Shown: positions 15,411 to 19,100 of the stretch, piece by piece
How the letters are laid out: every line of letters starts with the position of its first letter
Numbering within the stretch: the stretch's first letter is position 1
NCBI GenBank assembly: GCA_029856155.1
Contig: JAHQWL010000078.1
Coordinates: forward strand, 1 to 20,564
DNA: 20,564 nt
Origin: Promethearchaeia archaeon
Lineage (GTDB): Archaea; Asgardarchaeota; Lokiarchaeia; Sigyniarchaeales; SOKP01
Reading direction: 5' to 3'
Translations under genes and position numbers: made by a program
The notes under the pieces: generated by a model
Database searches by the model: none
Told to the model about the DNA's origin: nothing
The model's input: the letters and a program-made list of their open reading frames with translations, nothing else

Positions 15411-16421
15411 TTACTTAATTTCCCATACTTCAAGACCCTTTGGATTAAAATGAAAATTAACAATTTTTCCTCCTATTTTTTCTAACTCTTGCATTACTTT
15501 AGGTTTCTGATTTGGTTTTGAAAATAATAACAGATGGCCTCCACCTCCAGCACCCAACAATTTTCCTCCGAGAACTCCAAGTTTTCTTGAAGTTAAGTAG
15601 AATTTTTCTATATTTTTATTTGATATTTTATCACTTAAACTCTTCTTAGCTAACCAGCCTTTATGTAAAAGTTCTCCAAATTCATTCAATCTATTTAAAT
15701 TGTTAGCTTCTACGATATTTCTCATAGAATGAGCTACATCTTTGAGATCTTGCATCGATTCAATATAAGACTTTTTCTCAATTTCATACCCTTGTAGTAC
15801 TTCATCTTGTATATCAGAAGAAAAATGAGAACCCCCTACATAACATAAAATTAACCTAAATTGGAGCTCATTGATCATATCTTCTGTCACCTTTACAGGA
15901 ATTACATTTATGTCTTTAGTAAATTCTATAAAATTGAAACCCCCATAAGCGGCCGCAAATTGATCTTGATATCCTCCTTTCTGGTCTAATTCAATACGTT
16001 CAATAATATATGCTTTTTGTGCTATATCGTGTCTGGACAATTCTAAATTCAAATATTTATTAAAGGCTCCTATTAATGCTACTGATAAAGAAGATGATCC
16101 TCCCATTCCAGAACCCGCGGGAAGTTCTGAATATACTATGATATCGAAACCCTCTTTTATTTCTAAGACATTAATAACTCCCTTGAATAAGTCAAATTCG
16201 GTAGAATAATTTTTGTCTCCAATTTCAAATTGATATTCTTTATTGAGATTAATTGAAAAAATATGTATATTTTTATCGTGTCTTGGTTTTAAAGTTATAT
16301 AAATGTGACGATCAATAGTCGTGTTTATTACACAGCCACCATGTTCAATACAATATGGTGCCATATCTGTGCCTCCTCCACCAAAGCTCACTCGAAATGG
16401 TGCCTTTGAACGAATTATCAT
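15411..16421 (-). CDS. hddA: D-glycero-alpha-D-manno-heptose 7-phosphate kinase (GHMP family)
   Basis: IRSKAPFRVSFGGGGTD, LPAGSGMGGSS, GGYQDQFAAAYGGFNFIEF, GKLLGAGGGG. ATG at 16421 is preferred; alternative GTG at 16430. Confidence 0.92.
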   Translation of the reverse strand: MIIRSKAPFRVSFGGGGTDMAPYCIEHGGCVINTTIDRHIYITLKPRHDKNIHIFSINLNKEYQFEIGDKNYSTEFDLFKGVINVLEIKEGFDIIVYSELPAGSGMGGSSSLSVALIGAFNKYLNLELSRHDIAQKAYIIERIELDQKGGYQDQFAAAYGGFNFIEFTKDINVIPVKVTEDMINELQFRLILCYVGGSHFSSDIQDEVLQGYEIEKKSYIESMQDLKDVAHSMRNIVEANNLNRLNEFGELLHKGWLAKKSLSDKISNKNIEKFYLTSRKLGVLGGKLLGAGGGGHLLLFSKPNQKPKVMQELEKIGGKIVNFHFNPKGLEVWEIK

Positions 16422-16580
16422 ATAAATCACTGTTATTGGAAATATACTATAATATCAAATTTGTTCATGTTAAATCATTAAAAAATTTGATTACATATTC
16501 TAATAAAAAATCAATAAAGTAATTCATTTTTATTGGTTTATCATATTCTTTAATTTACATAATAACTTATGAATTATGAG

Positions 16581-16600
16581 TATTTTTAATTTCCCTTCAT
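16581..16600. repeat. Left copy of a 20-bp imperfect inverted repeat flanking tnpB
   Basis: TATTTTTAATTTCCCTTCAT. Its reverse complement ATGAAGGGAAATTAAAAATA matches 17903-17922 at 18/20. Confidence 0.7.
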
Positions 16601-16678
16601 TTTTAATCTTCTTTTATAAAATATAAATCTTCAGTCTCTTTTCTTTTAAATCTGATACTCTACTTAAATATTATTGGA

Positions 16679-17869
16679 ATGAGGCTAACAGAACAGATTC
16701 AATTAAAGAAAACTCCACAATTATCTTATCTATGTTATTTATCCAAAAATCTCTATAATCTTGCTAATTATTATGTGAGACAAGAATATTTTTATTTAGG
16801 AAATTGGTTGAGATATTACGATTTATGGTATATGCTAAAAGAGAAAGAACCCTATAAAAAACTCCCTTCACAAACTGCTCAGCAAACTCTAAGACTCGTG
16901 GATAAGAATTGGAAGTCATTTTTCCATTCTTTGAGATCCAATAAAAAACATCCAGAAAAATATTTGGGAATTCCAAAACCACCAAGTTATAAAAAGAAAG
17001 ATGGAGAGTGTATAATTGGGTTCACAAATCAACAATGCAGGATTAAAGGAGGATTTCTTTATTTCCCAAAAACAACTCAATTACCTCCTATTAGGACACG
17101 TATAGAAAGTAAATTGCACCACGTAAGAATAATTCCAAAAGGAGTGTATTATGTTTTAGAAATTATATATCAAAAGGATAGAAAAAATTTAAATCTAGAT
17201 AAAAAGAGAGTTATTGGGATTGATTTGGGATTAACTAATATCATAACTATGGTAAATAATGCTGGGTTACCACCCGCTATTATTAAAGGTGGTATTGTTA
17301 AATCTATCAATCAATTCTATAATAAACAACTTTCAGGATATAAAAGCATAAAGGATAAGCAAGGAATTACTTCTCAAACGAAAAAAATGCAACAGTCAAC
17401 ACAGAGAAGAAATAATAAAATTAATGATATCTTTCATAAAATTTCGAGAGTAGTGATTAATTATTGTATTAACTATGATTTTGGAACAATAATCATTGGT
17501 TATAATAAAACTTGGAAACATAAGATAACAATAGGGAAGAAGAATAACCAGAACTTTGTCCAAATTCCTTTTTCCAAATTAGTTTCTCATATTAAATACA
17601 AATCAGAGTTAATTGGGGTTGATGTTAATTTAGAGCCAGAATCTTTCACTTCGAGATGTAGCTTCTTGGATAATGAATCTATTAGAAGGCATGACAAATA
17701 TCAGGGAAGACGTATTTGTAGGGGTTTATTTCAAAGTCATAAAGGGACTATTATCAATGCGGATGTGAATGGAGCATATAATATCCTTAAAAAAGCAATC
17801 CCAAAAGTCATATCGGCGGATGGGATAGAGGGTGTAGGGTTACATCCATATTCTATAAAAATTTCATAG
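16679..17869 (+). CDS. tnpB: TnpB-family RNA-guided endonuclease with rearranged RuvC-II
   Basis: N-terminal SKNLYNLANY, LPSQTAQQ, WKSFF, PKPPSYK. RuvC-I GID(182)LG. RuvC-II position IIIG(274)YN with alternative E321 in PESFTSRC. RuvC-III NAD(362)VNGAYNI. Confidence 0.94.
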   Translation: MRLTEQIQLKKTPQLSYLCYLSKNLYNLANYYVRQEYFYLGNWLRYYDLWYMLKEKEPYKKLPSQTAQQTLRLVDKNWKSFFHSLRSNKKHPEKYLGIPKPPSYKKKDGECIIGFTNQQCRIKGGFLYFPKTTQLPPIRTRIESKLHHVRIIPKGVYYVLEIIYQKDRKNLNLDKKRVIGIDLGLTNIITMVNNAGLPPAIIKGGIVKSINQFYNKQLSGYKSIKDKQGITSQTKKMQQSTQRRNNKINDIFHKISRVVINYCINYDFGTIIIGYNKTWKHKITIGKKNNQNFVQIPFSKLVSHIKYKSELIGVDVNLEPESFTSRCSFLDNESIRRHDKYQGRRICRGLFQSHKGTIINADVNGAYNILKKAIPKVISADGIEGVGLHPYSIKIS

Positions 17870-17925
17870 CTGAAATAAATTATAGAATAGAATTTTAATT
17901 TCATCAAGGGAAATTTAAAATAACC
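17810..17925 (+). ncRNA. Putative omega RNA (3' part of scaffold plus guide) overlapping the tnpB 3' end; boundaries approximate
   Basis: GC-enriched patch with hairpin GGGTGTA-GGGT-TACATCC (17830-17847, one G-U pair). A long hairpin at 17849-17889 (TATTCTATAA/TTATAGAATA plus ATTTCA/TGAAAT) spans the stop codon. TnpB omega RNAs are known to be encoded at this position. Confidence 0.55.
17903..17922. repeat. Right copy of the 20-bp imperfect inverted repeat; also resembles an archaeal BRE-TATA promoter for the downstream SDR
   Basis: ATCAAGGGAAATTTAAAATA: a purine-rich stretch followed by TTTAAAATA, ending 44 nt before the ATG at 17967. Confidence 0.65.
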
Positions 17926-17966
17926 TGAACTATTAAAATATCTAAAATTTGTCTTAAGAACATTAT

Positions 17967-19100
17967 ATGACCGAAAAAGTATTAGTTACAGGTGGAGCAG
18001 GTTTTATAGGTTCCCATTTAGTTGATAAATTAATTGATCAAATAGGGTATGAAGTATCTATTATTGATACCTTAGAACCACAAGTTCATGGAAATACGGA
18101 TCATCCTCCAGATTATCTTAATAAAAATGCGAAATTTTATAGAGGTTCTGTGACTGATTATAAAAAATTAGAAGATTTAGTAGGAGAGAGTGATGTAGTC
18201 TTTCATTTAGCAGCGATGGTGGGAGTAGGACAATCAATGTATAAAATAAAAAAATATATAGATAATAATATACTTGGTTTGGCTATTTTGTTCGATATTT
18301 TAGTTAACAGTAATCACAATGTAAAAAAAGTCGTTTTAGCCTCATCTAACACGGTTTATGGAGAAGGCAAATCTCATTGTGATACTTGTGGGTTAGTTTT
18401 TCCAGAATTGAGACCATCAGATCAATTGAAACGTAAAGATTGGGAAATTAATTGCCCTAAATGTGGATCTAAAGTTAAACCTCTCTTAACTGATGAAAAA
18501 TCACCATGTAATCCTAGTTCTATTTATGCCTACTCAAAACTAGCTCAAGAAAAAATAGGTTTAATGATTGCGAATACTTATGGAATAAAAATGGCTATTT
18601 TAAGGTTTTTTTTAGTGTATGGCACTAGACAAGCTCTTTCAAATCCATACACAGGAGTATGTTCAATCTTTAGTACTAGAGCCCTCTATGGAAAACCTCC
18701 AATAATATTTGAAGATGGGAAGCAATCACGAGATTTTATGGATGTAAAAGACGTCTGTCAAGCTTTAGTTCTTGCAATGGAAAAAAATGCTGCTAATGGT
18801 GAAATTTTCAATGTCGGTACTGGTCTACCGATAACAATAGCGGAAGTAGCAGAAATTATTACTCAAAAAATTAACCCTAATTTAAAACCTACTTATGATC
18901 AACATTATAGAATTGGTGATATAAGGCATTGTGTTGCTGATATTTCCAAAATAAAAAATAAACTAGGATATTCACCAACATTAAGTTTTGAAGAAGGGAT
19001 AGATGATTTAATAAATTGGATAAAGACTCAAAAAAAAGATATAAAAGAACCTTCACATAAAGCTATGCAAGAATTAAAAGAAAAAGGATTATTAAAATAA
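17967..19100 (+). CDS. SDR NDP-sugar epimerase with Cys-rich insertion (WbiB / dTDP-L-rhamnose 4-epimerase-like)
   Basis: VTGGAGFIGSH, LEPQVHG, HLAAMVGVGQSMY, SSNTVYGEG, CDTC...CPKC insertion, YAYSK, QALSNPYTGV, FEDGKQSRDF, GDIRHC. Confidence 0.85.
   Translation: MTEKVLVTGGAGFIGSHLVDKLIDQIGYEVSIIDTLEPQVHGNTDHPPDYLNKNAKFYRGSVTDYKKLEDLVGESDVVFHLAAMVGVGQSMYKIKKYIDNNILGLAILFDILVNSNHNVKKVVLASSNTVYGEGKSHCDTCGLVFPELRPSDQLKRKDWEINCPKCGSKVKPLLTDEKSPCNPSSIYAYSKLAQEKIGLMIANTYGIKMAILRFFLVYGTRQALSNPYTGVCSIFSTRALYGKPPIIFEDGKQSRDFMDVKDVCQALVLAMEKNAANGEIFNVGTGLPITIAEVAEIITQKINPNLKPTYDQHYRIGDIRHCVADISKIKNKLGYSPTLSFEEGIDDLINWIKTQKKDIKEPSHKAMQELKEKGLLK

What the first reader, a model, noticed from the sequence alone, without database searches (positions are those of the whole stretch)
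16581..17922. tnpB is bracketed by an 18/20 inverted repeat: self-matching guide, TIR-type element, or twin promoters
Seen: revcomp(16581-16600)=ATGAAGGGAAATTAAAAATA versus 17903-17922=ATCAAGGGAAATTTAAAATA, with TA at both outer ends. Known: IS200/IS605 elements lack terminal inverted repeats, often end in TCAA, and use the right flank as the guide. Inference A: if the element ends at TCAA (17907), the guide GGGAAATTTAAAATA matches the minus strand at 16595-16581 at 14/15, after a TAM-like ATGAA. That site lies in the divergent tnpB/hddA promoter region, so a short match could give RNA-guided repression of tnpB or the heptose operon. Inference B: these are TIRs with a TA duplication, as in IS630/Tc1-mariner, carrying TnpB as some Fanzor elements do. 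Inference C: two similar BRE-TATA promoters of the divergent sugar operons.
Basis: partly seen in the sequence, partly recalled or inferred. Interest (0 to 1): 0.8.

Follow-up and report, generated by a model that had tools for sequence, protein, structure and literature searches.

The report
TnpB riding a cut-and-paste-style transposon
The inverted repeat around tnpB is real: it forms the terminal inverted repeats of a 1.35-kb transposon in an Asgard archaeon that made an 8-bp target duplication, shares its ends with a separate DDE-transposase insertion sequence, and so carries an RNA-guided nuclease in the way eukaryotic Fanzor elements do.

Summary
Both arms are conserved in every related copy, and the family consensus is a perfect 20/20.

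Five sister genomes carry the uninterrupted site ...CTTA TGAACTAT TAAAATATC.... This fixes the element at window 16578-17925 (1348 bp). It has 23-bp terminal inverted repeats and an 8-bp target-site duplication (16570-16577 and 17926-17933). Eighteen independent insertions of the family have 8-9-bp duplications.

No Y1 TnpA was found in five genomes of the genus. No serine recombinase was found in this genome or in the genome with the most copies.

The same ends flank a separate insertion sequence in related Asgard genomes. That sequence encodes a 420-458-aa DDE transposase with a Zn ribbon and an IS240/IS6-like domain, and it also makes 8-bp duplications. The tnpB element is therefore best read as a non-autonomous passenger moved in trans.

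On a tree, the TIR-type TnpBs form one clade next to IS607-type Asgard TnpBs, which suggests a single capture.

All verified insertions show an orientation-specific TTA|T immediately left of, and running into, the duplication. This looks like a TAM. The guide would then be the duplication plus the right flank.

Reading B is right in kind but wrong in detail: there is no TA duplication and no IS630 link. Readings A and C are refuted.

The parts
16567..16569 (+). TTA immediately 5' of the left copy of the target duplication. With the T at 16570 it forms TTAT, a candidate TAM.
   Evidence: In 18 TSD-verified insertions the 3 nt upstream are TTA (16) or ATA (2), and the first duplicated base is T in all 18. 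There is no mirror-image motif on the right side. The TAM function is inferred.
16570..16577 (.). Left copy of the 8-bp target-site duplication (TGAATTAT, one mutation).
   Evidence: Empty sites in G064, G010, G015 and G071 carry a single TGAACTAT/TGGACTAT, and G029 carries AGTACTAT, at this place.
16578..16600 (+). Left terminal inverted repeat, GAGTATTTTTAATTTCCCTTCAT.
   Evidence: Conservation among copies starts here. It is complementary to 17903-17925. It resembles the ends of the DDE insertion sequence in G083, G018 and G044.
16612..16628 (+). AT-rich TATA-like stretch (TTTTATAAAATATAAAT) inside the left end; putative tnpB promoter.
   Evidence: The block ...TATCAAATATAAATC... is conserved in all copies about 50-65 nt upstream of the ATG. 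Promoter function is inferred and not tested.
16679..17869 (+). tnpB, 396 aa, intact.
   Evidence: Pfam OrfB_IS605 and Cas12f1-like_TNB. NCBIfam guided_TnpB, 176 bits. D182, E321 and D362 are invariant in 27 relatives. The family profile hits TnpB/Cas12f structures.
17798..17925 (+). Conserved structured RNA region at the 3' end of tnpB and the right end; candidate omegaRNA scaffold.
   Evidence: RNAalifold on 19 copies gives three stems, 8 pairs with compensatory changes. The terminal AU-rich hairpin that includes the inner half of the repeat is weak. No RNA data are available.
17903..17925 (+). Right terminal inverted repeat, ATCAAGGGAAATTTAAAATAACC (two private mutations relative to the family consensus ATGAAGGGAAATTAAAAATAACC).
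   Evidence: Conservation among copies ends exactly at ...AACC.
17926..17933 (.). Right copy of the 8-bp target-site duplication (TGAACTAT).
   Evidence: It is identical to the single copy in the empty sites. Homology with empty-site genomes resumes at 17926.
17926..17945 (+). Predicted guide-encoding segment (the duplication plus the right flank) following the scaffold.
   Evidence: Inferred by analogy with TnpB and Fanzor, where the guide is the DNA just beyond the right end. Not tested.

Best explanation
Window 16578-17925 is a 1348-bp non-autonomous DNA transposon. Its only gene is an RNA-guided nuclease, TnpB. It has 23-bp terminal inverted repeats and inserted into the intergenic region between a divergent GHMP-kinase (hddA-like) operon and an epimerase operon, duplicating 8 bp of target (TGAACTAT). 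The host is an Asgard archaeon (Promethearchaeota).

The repeats belong to the same end family as a separate ~1.46-1.49-kb insertion sequence of related Asgard genomes. That sequence encodes a DDE transposase (N-terminal Zn ribbon plus an IS240/IS6-like catalytic domain) and also makes 8-bp duplications. The tnpB element is therefore most likely moved in trans by that transposase, which binds the repeats. No copy of the transposase was found in this genome, where the element is single-copy and slightly decayed.

Inferred steps: the 3' end of tnpB plus the right end is transcribed into an omegaRNA whose guide is the duplication plus the right flank. TnpB recognises TTA(T) as its TAM. The complex cuts unoccupied alleles (TTAT + GAACTATTAAAAT...), so that repair from an occupied chromosome copy spreads or retains the element.
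For: Shown:
- Empty sites in five sister genomes, up to 90% identical in the flanks, contain one copy of the 8-mer and neither repeat arm.
- Conservation among copies begins at GAG... and ends at ...AACC.
- Eighteen independent insertions have 8-9-bp duplications matching at 7/8 or better, most of them perfect.
- No Y1 TnpA (PF01797) was found in G000, G018, G008, G007 or G024, while the search's control genomes scored. No serine recombinase was found in G000 or G018.
- A DDE insertion sequence has near-identical ends. In G083 (L176) it carries TGAAGGGAAATTAAAAAT, identical to the tnpB element's consensus right end over 18 nt or more, and GATAATTTTTAAATTCCCTTCA on the left. G018 holds a high-copy version. 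The G044 copies are flanked by perfect 8-bp duplications, CTTATTAA and CGAAAAGA.
- The transposase scores 36 bits on PF13610 DDE_Tnp_IS240, above the gathering score.
- G018, the genome with 6 or more tnpB-element copies, also holds that insertion sequence in many copies.
- TIR-type TnpBs form one clade of 35 rows (SH-aLRT 92), next to Asgard TnpBs with an upstream serine recombinase.
- The catalytic residues D182, E321 and D362 are invariant.
- The 3' region has conserved stems with covariation.
- The motif TTA|T occurs in 16 of 18 insertions (ATA|T in the other 2) on the left side only.
- The filled junctions occur at 100% identity in contigs of four runs from four studies.
Against: - No element with the DDE transposase and tnpB together was seen, and no transposition was observed, so mobilisation in trans is inferred from shared ends, shared duplication length and co-occurrence.
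- The transposase was not found in the window's own genome, although repeats are often unassembled.
- About a third of copies lack a matching duplication.
- The transposase family is uncertain: IS6 and IS1 NCBIfam scores are far below their cut-offs, and the protein is twice the size of IS6 transposases.
- The TAM and guide assignments have no RNA or biochemical support.
- The flanks of the transposase-bearing sequence available for comparison are few: 2 with duplications and 12 single ends.
- The clade support of 92 SH-aLRT comes from a quick tree.
Confidence: 0.8

Rival explanations
1. The oriented TTA|T next to the duplication is the target preference of the DDE transposase, for example through asymmetric recognition of the slightly different left (GAG) and right (GGT) tips. 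It is not a TnpB TAM, and TnpB is then a passenger with an unrelated or no role in site choice.
For: DDE transposases often prefer AT-rich targets. ISH6 elements duplicate AANATNTT, and asymmetric end recognition has been proposed for oriented insertion of other DDE elements (PMC3942029). Only 2 duplications and 12 single flanks of the transposase-bearing sequence could be compared.
Against: Those flanks do not show a fixed T. The first bases were C and C in G044 and mixed A/T/C in G018. The motif has no mirror image, which is unusual for a transposase acting on near-symmetrical ends. Two Altiarchaeum relatives with quite different repeats also have TTAT left of their duplication.
Confidence: 0.3
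2. Ordinary IS200/IS605 (IS1341-type) element moved as single-stranded DNA by a Y1 TnpA. The inverted repeat merely reflects similar subterminal hairpins at both ends.
For: TnpB is classically an IS200/IS605 gene (Pfam OrfB_IS605). The right end can form a weak hairpin.
Against: An 8-bp target duplication is present in 18 insertions, and IS200/IS605 makes none (PMC13565253). The left end has only one arm and no hairpin of its own. No Y1 TnpA was found in five genomes of the genus.
Confidence: 0.02
3. Self-targeting guide. The omegaRNA guide is the GGGAAATTTAAAATA inside the right arm and directs TnpB to the left arm, repressing tnpB or the heptose operon.
For: The left arm lies upstream of the putative tnpB TATA region.
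Against: The element ends at 17925, not 17907. The segment is conserved in all copies together with its partner, as expected of transposase-binding ends, and the same ends flank a tnpB-less transposase element. The catalytic triad is intact.
Confidence: 0.03
4. IS607-type element moved by a serine recombinase acting in trans.
For: The sister TnpB clade (56-57% identity) has serine recombinase genes directly upstream.
Against: IS607 elements have neither terminal inverted repeats nor target duplications (PMC6188088 abstract; PMC13565253). No serine recombinase of this type was found in G000, G018, G008 or G007.
Confidence: 0.02
5. Twin BRE-TATA promoters of the divergent sugar operons.
For: Both arms are AT-rich and face outward. 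The right arm contains TTTAAAATA 45 nt upstream of the epimerase ATG.
Against: Both arms are absent from the uninterrupted intergenic region of five relatives and travel with tnpB to unrelated sites.
Confidence: 0.01

Closest known systems
DDE-transposase-associated TnpB branches (Altae-Tran et al. 2023, PNAS, PMC10691335; ISL2, IS630 and IS1031 types as summarised in PMC13565253)
   Same: A prokaryotic TnpB sits inside a transposon with inverted terminal repeats. tnpB lies within about 60 bp of the right end. The paper also notes solo TnpBs with ends like those of transposase-bearing elements, moved in trans.
   Different: Here the related transposase has an IS240/IS6-like DDE domain with a Zn ribbon and makes 8-bp duplications, a type not among those named. 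No element carrying both genes was seen. The host is an Asgard archaeon. I could not check the paper's supplementary lists, so overlap with one of its unnamed branches is possible.
Fanzor1 / Fanzor2* elements of eukaryotes and their viruses (Bao & Jurka 2013, PMC3627910; Yoon et al. 2023, PMC10711439)
   Same: A TnpB homologue from an IS607-related lineage was captured by a TIR/TSD transposon, often non-autonomous and encoding only the nuclease. The right repeat and the duplication lie at the scaffold-guide junction. The canonical RuvC-II Glu position is not conserved (Gly274 here), with another invariant Glu (E321).
   Different: The host is archaeal and the protein is compact (396 aa). No nuclear features are present. 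No direct phylogenetic link to Fanzors was tested here.
IS200/IS605 family, IS1341 group (tnpB-only elements)
   Same: It has a single tnpB gene, a size of about 1.3 kb, and an omegaRNA-like structured 3' region.
   Different: It has terminal inverted repeats and an 8-bp duplication. The ends are not paired hairpins, and no Y1 transposase was found in the genus.
IS6/IS26 family
   Same: It makes an 8-bp target duplication, has short terminal inverted repeats starting with G, and matches Pfam DDE_Tnp_IS240 above the gathering score.
   Different: The Asgard sequence is 1.46-1.49 kb with a 420-458-aa transposase, against 0.79-0.88 kb for IS6 members (PMC7986276). It scores 42 bits against the NCBIfam IS6 cut-off of 125, and scores similarly weakly for IS1.

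Membership tests
IS200/IS605 (IS1341 group) | No terminal inverted repeats and no target-site duplication | tested here: not met
   23-bp terminal repeats and an 8-bp duplication, confirmed by empty sites and 18 insertions.
IS200/IS605 (IS1341 group) | Subterminal hairpins at both ends on one strand | tested here: not met
   The right end forms only a weak hairpin (-3.4 kcal/mol, z -0.4). The left end holds a single arm with no partner.
IS200/IS605 (IS1341 group) | Y1 (HUH) TnpA available in cis or in trans | tested here: not met
   PF01797 was not found in G000, G018, G008, G007 or G024, while 6 of the 14 control genomes of the same search scored. The genomes are 86-100% complete, so absence is not proven.
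IS607 | Serine recombinase TnpA; no repeats or duplication; GG at the ends | tested here: not met
   No serine recombinase in G000 or G018. Repeats and duplications are present. The ends are GAG...ACC.
IS630/Tc1-mariner | TA target duplicated | tested here: not met
The duplication is 8-9 bp of varied sequence.
TnpB (RNA-guided nuclease) | RuvC catalytic residues and TnpB profile match | tested here: met
   NCBIfam guided_TnpB scores 176 bits against a cut-off of 100. D182, E321 and D362 are invariant. The canonical RuvC-II position aligns to Gly274, so the site is of the rearranged type (alignment).
TnpB (RNA-guided nuclease) | omegaRNA with a guide beyond the right end; TAM-dependent cleavage | not testable with these tools
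   Only conserved stems with covariation and an oriented TTA|T motif. No RNA run is listed.
Non-autonomous TIR/TSD DNA transposon moved in trans by a DDE transposase | Terminal inverted repeats shared with an autonomous element, and the same duplication length | tested here: met
   The ends of L176, L179, L184 and the G018 sequence match those of the tnpB element (16-22 of 22-25 positions, including an exact run of 18 nt or more). Both make 8-bp duplications.
Non-autonomous TIR/TSD DNA transposon moved in trans by a DDE transposase | Demonstrated mobilisation by that transposase | not testable with these tools
   Only co-occurrence: G018 has many copies of both. G000 has one tnpB element and no detectable transposase.
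IS6 family (for the partner insertion sequence) | IS6-type DDE transposase of about 230-260 aa; element of 0.8-0.9 kb; 8-bp duplication | tested here: inconclusive
   PF13610 scores 36 bits, above the gathering score of 27, and the 8-bp duplication is met. NCBIfam IS6 scores 42 bits, below the cut-off of 125, and IS1 scores 38 bits. The transposase is 420-458 aa and the element is 1.46-1.49 kb.

The most novel reading that the evidence does not exclude
In Asgard archaea an IS607-lineage TnpB was captured once by a DDE-type TIR/TSD transposon and now imposes its own TAM (TTAT) on which insertions survive. The DDE transposase chooses sites with little specificity. Only insertions that land just right of a TTAT can be driven through the cell's chromosome copies by TnpB cutting the empty alleles. 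That would make this a prokaryotic, archaeal counterpart of the Fanzor-in-TIR-transposon arrangement, found in the lineage closest to eukaryotes. It would also be the first sign that an RNA-guided nuclease can serve a transposon that may be replicative and not excise at all.
Probability: 0.3. Interest if true: 0.8.

Novelty: new variant of a known kind. Interest (0 to 1): 0.6.

Why it matters
TnpB is usually described as a passenger of IS200/IS605 and IS607 elements, which excise without a scar. That is the basis of the 'restorative homing' model. A recent review argues that prokaryotic TnpB rarely pairs with DDE transposons because TAM recognition is inflexible (PMC13565253).

This family gives a clean natural data set bearing on that argument. 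It has exact ends, empty sites, more than 18 dated insertions, a candidate trans-acting transposase, and an oriented TTAT beside every duplication. The data show how a TnpB can coexist with a DDE transposon.

The arrangement mirrors the step proposed for Fanzor evolution, in which an IS607-type nuclease is captured by TIR/TSD transposons, but in an Asgard archaeon.

It also supplies a compact (396 aa) nuclease with a rearranged active site and a predicted TAM and guide position that can be tested directly.

Tried and rejected
- Rfam scan of 16000-18500 at E<=1: no match.
- Own-genome search for more copies: only the window copy and a 63%-identical fragment at a contig end (C41), so the ends could not be fixed within G000.
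- Recurrent ~190-aa neighbours of tnpB loci, first suspected to be a transposase, are Ras-family GTPases and unrelated to the element.
- Single-sequence search of the PDB: no hit. The family profile was needed.
- G061 locus L164 turned out to hold only a ~280-bp remnant of the DDE sequence.
- The full G018 DDE sequence could not be assembled. Only 406 nt of one end and about 200 nt of the other lie at contig ends.
- The L176 copy (G083) has no matching duplication.
- Generic search for repeats and duplications around other transposase homologues (L178, L181, L188-L190) gave nothing clear.
- ISH6 was considered for the partner sequence, from recall of its 8-bp duplication and ~1.45-kb size. Only its AANATNTT target and Mutator relationship could be read, and no profile was available, so it was left open.
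- The terminal hairpin of the right end as a conserved omegaRNA stem is weak and not kept in all subfamilies.
- Sequencing runs: no RNA holder is listed, so nothing can be said on expression.
- Read laying used contigs only. It showed filled junctions, and empty-site contigs that are about 89% identical and therefore come from relatives, not from the same strain.
- Complex prediction and structure prediction were not used, because no claim here depends on them.
Full report
**The observation.** The repeat finder ranks the pair first. In 1000 dinucleotide-preserving shuffles of the two intergenic flanks, 9 reached 18/20. Taken alone, the repeat is suggestive but not compelling.

**The gene and its host.** The ORF between the arms (16679-17869) is a 396-aa TnpB. 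It matches Pfam OrfB_IS605 and Cas12f1-like_TNB and NCBIfam guided_TnpB at 176 bits.
- To the left, on the opposite strand, lies a GHMP kinase at the head of a heptose/pentose-phosphate operon. To the right lies an epimerase/dehydratase pair.
- The genome is a 4.1-Mb, ~30% GC assembly in 104 contigs.
- Close relatives are MAGs labelled Promethearchaeota or 'Hermodarchaeota', so the host is an Asgard archaeon.

**Fixing the ends with other copies.** The window's genome has only this copy and a distant contig-end fragment. A congener, G018, has at least six full copies at 83-85% protein identity, and other genomes have more.
- Alignment of the flanks shows that similarity begins at GAGTATTTTTAATTTCC... 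and ends at ...GGGAAATTAAAAATAACC.
- Both arms of the repeat are therefore inside the mobile unit.
- In most copies the right arm is the exact complement of the window's left arm.

**Empty sites.** A search of the genus with the left flank found 36 genomes holding the hddA-like gene region. In five of them the homology runs straight on into the epimerase side.
- Four of the five read ...AATAACTTA TG(A/G)ACTAT TAAAATATCTAAAAT..., and the fifth (G029) reads AGTACTAT at the same place.
- The window reads ...AACTTA TGAATTAT [GAG...AACC] TGAACTAT TAAAATATC....
- The element is therefore 16578-17925 (1348 bp), and it duplicated 8 bp of target.
- Neither arm exists in the empty allele.
- Contigs of four public runs from four studies carry the filled junctions at 100% identity. 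Contigs of roughly 89%-identical relatives in two of the runs carry the empty form.

**The duplication is a family trait.** Across genome and metagenome loci I found 18 independent insertions with 8-bp (in two cases 9-bp) direct repeats matching at 7/8 or better, most of them perfect. Examples are TTAAATCT, TAACGATA, TATCTCTA, TTCCCTTA, TACATACT and TTGTTTTT. About a third of copies have no matching duplication, which may reflect decay or recombination between copies.

**Which transposase.**
- No Y1 TnpA profile hit was found in five genomes of the genus, including the multi-copy G018 and G024. Six of the 14 control genomes of the same search scored.
- No IS607-type serine recombinase was found in G000, G018, G008 or G007.
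- A pattern search for the arm turned up a second, high-copy repeat in G018 that ends many contigs exactly 127 nt inside itself (a k=127 assembly). Its tips read GATAATTTTTAATTTACCTTC(A/T)T.
- One end of that repeat leads into an ORF with a Zn-ribbon N-terminus. The other end holds the C-terminus of the same protein.
- Complete relatives exist in other Asgard genomes. L176 (G083) is 1493 bp, with a 420-aa protein and ends GATAATTTTTAAATTCCCTTCA / TGAAGGGAAATTAAAAATTATC. L179 and L184 (G044, a closed genome) are 1461 bp, with a 458-aa protein and ends GAGAATTTCT(C/T)AATTCCCATGA. The G044 copies are flanked by perfect 8-bp duplications, CTTATTAA and CGAAAAGA.
- The right end of L176 is identical to the consensus right end of the tnpB element over TGAAGGGAAATTAAAAAT.
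- The protein scores above Pfam's threshold for DDE_Tnp_IS240 (36 bits). It scores far below NCBIfam's cut-offs for IS6 (42 bits) and IS1 (38 bits).
- Its homologues are almost all on ~1.5-kb Asgard contigs, as expected of a collapsed repeat.
- I therefore call it an IS6/IS1-like DDE transposase of uncertain family.
- It was not found in the window's genome.
- Shared ends, shared duplication length and co-expansion in G018 make mobilisation in trans the best reading. That step is inferred, not shown.

**Origin of the nuclease.** A tree of 147 TnpBs from the fetched loci puts all TIR-type elements in one clade: 35 rows, SH-aLRT 92, quick method.
- The few rows in that clade without a detected left or right arm are mostly cut by contig ends.
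- Its neighbour is a clade of Asgard TnpBs (56-59% identical), several of which have a serine recombinase gene or remnant directly upstream (L064, L216, L277, L279).
- Deeper branches hold further serine-recombinase-linked TnpBs of Methanoperedens and Bacillota.
- This fits a single capture of an IS607-lineage TnpB by a DDE-type transposon. It is the same kind of event proposed for Fanzor2* and Fanzor1 (PMC10711439).
- D182, E321 and D362 are invariant in 27 relatives.
- The position of the canonical RuvC-II glutamate aligns to an invariant glycine (G274).

**Guide and TAM (inferred).** RNAalifold on 19 copies finds three conserved stems with compensatory changes in the last ~130 nt of the element. 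This is consistent with an omegaRNA scaffold. The final AU-rich hairpin that involves the repeat is weak.
- By analogy with TnpB and Fanzor, the guide should be the DNA just beyond 17925, that is, the duplication plus the right flank.
- In all 18 verified insertions the duplication starts with T. The three bases to its left are TTA in 16 and ATA in 2.
- There is no mirror-image motif on the right side.
- The few flanks of the tnpB-less DDE sequence do not show this pattern.
- An oriented motif beside near-symmetrical ends is what a TAM would leave. In an empty allele, TTAT would be followed directly by the sequence of the guide.
- The rival reading, a target preference of the transposase, is not excluded.

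- A fails because the element ends at 17925, not at TCAA. The 'guide' is end sequence shared with a tnpB-less element.
- C fails on the empty sites.
- B is right in kind but wrong on TA and IS630.

**What is known.** Altae-Tran et al. 2023 reported six TnpB branches linked to DDE transposases, all with inverted terminal repeats, and solo TnpBs apparently moved in trans (PMC10691335). A 2026 review names the transposase types as ISL2, IS630 and IS1031 (PMC13565253). IS200/IS605 and IS607 have neither repeats nor duplications.
- The present family is thus a new variant of a known kind. It differs in its transposase type (IS240-like, 8-bp duplication), in having no element that carries both genes, and in its Asgard host.
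- I could not read that paper's supplementary end lists, so prior listing cannot be excluded.

Noticed in passing
L103, L105-L108, L116 (Altiarchaeum / Altiarchaeales contigs): TnpBs about 50% identical to the window's sit between a quite different inverted repeat (GAGTGATTTCGCTTT / AAAGCGAAATCACTC) at the same distances from the gene. At least two copies have 8-bp duplications (ATGTTGTT, GTTTTATT) preceded by TTAT. The right repeat pairs with an upstream segment in a stable hairpin (-9.5 kcal/mol, z -3.2). This may be a second TIR/TSD capture, or an older common one.
   Followed up: partly
window 17903-17966: The insertion lies 41 nt upstream of the epimerase ATG (17967) and separates that operon from the AT-rich TTTAAATAATAA stretch found upstream of it in empty-site relatives. 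The right repeat itself carries TTTAAAATA about 45 nt before the ATG, so the operon may now be read from an outward-facing promoter in the transposon end, or by read-through from tnpB.
   Followed up: no
G018 contig ends (L143-L158); G064 contig ends: A high-copy DDE insertion sequence ends many contigs exactly 127 nt (G018) or ~54 nt (G064) inside itself. Its body is missing from both bins, so transposase counts in these MAGs are underestimates.
   Followed up: partly
window 16679-17869 (residues 274, 321, 327): The canonical RuvC-II glutamate position is an invariant Gly, with another invariant Glu at 321. The usual CxxC...CxxC zinc finger is reduced (C327 nearly invariant, the other Cys positions not).
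   Followed up: partly
G024:C10:105035-106824 and G024:C7:975013-976451 (L277-L279): The sister tnpB clade in the same genus has IS607-type serine recombinase genes directly upstream, but they are broken by stop codons. These elements look immobilised.
   Followed up: no
G000:C41:1-322 (L002): The contig ends inside the 3' end of a second, divergent tnpB (63% identical over 72 aa). Its downstream sequence lacks the repeat of the window's family.
   Followed up: partly
L060, L062, L071, L082, L090: Ras-family small GTPase genes lie next to tnpB in five unrelated loci. This probably only reflects how numerous these genes are in Asgard genomes.
   Followed up: partly
G018:C76:25570-25625 (L159): A solo right end (...GATAGAATGAAATTTTAGTTTCATGAAGAGAAATTAAAAATAACC) has no tnpB beside it. 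It may be a deletion remnant or a stand-alone omegaRNA-type fragment.
   Followed up: no
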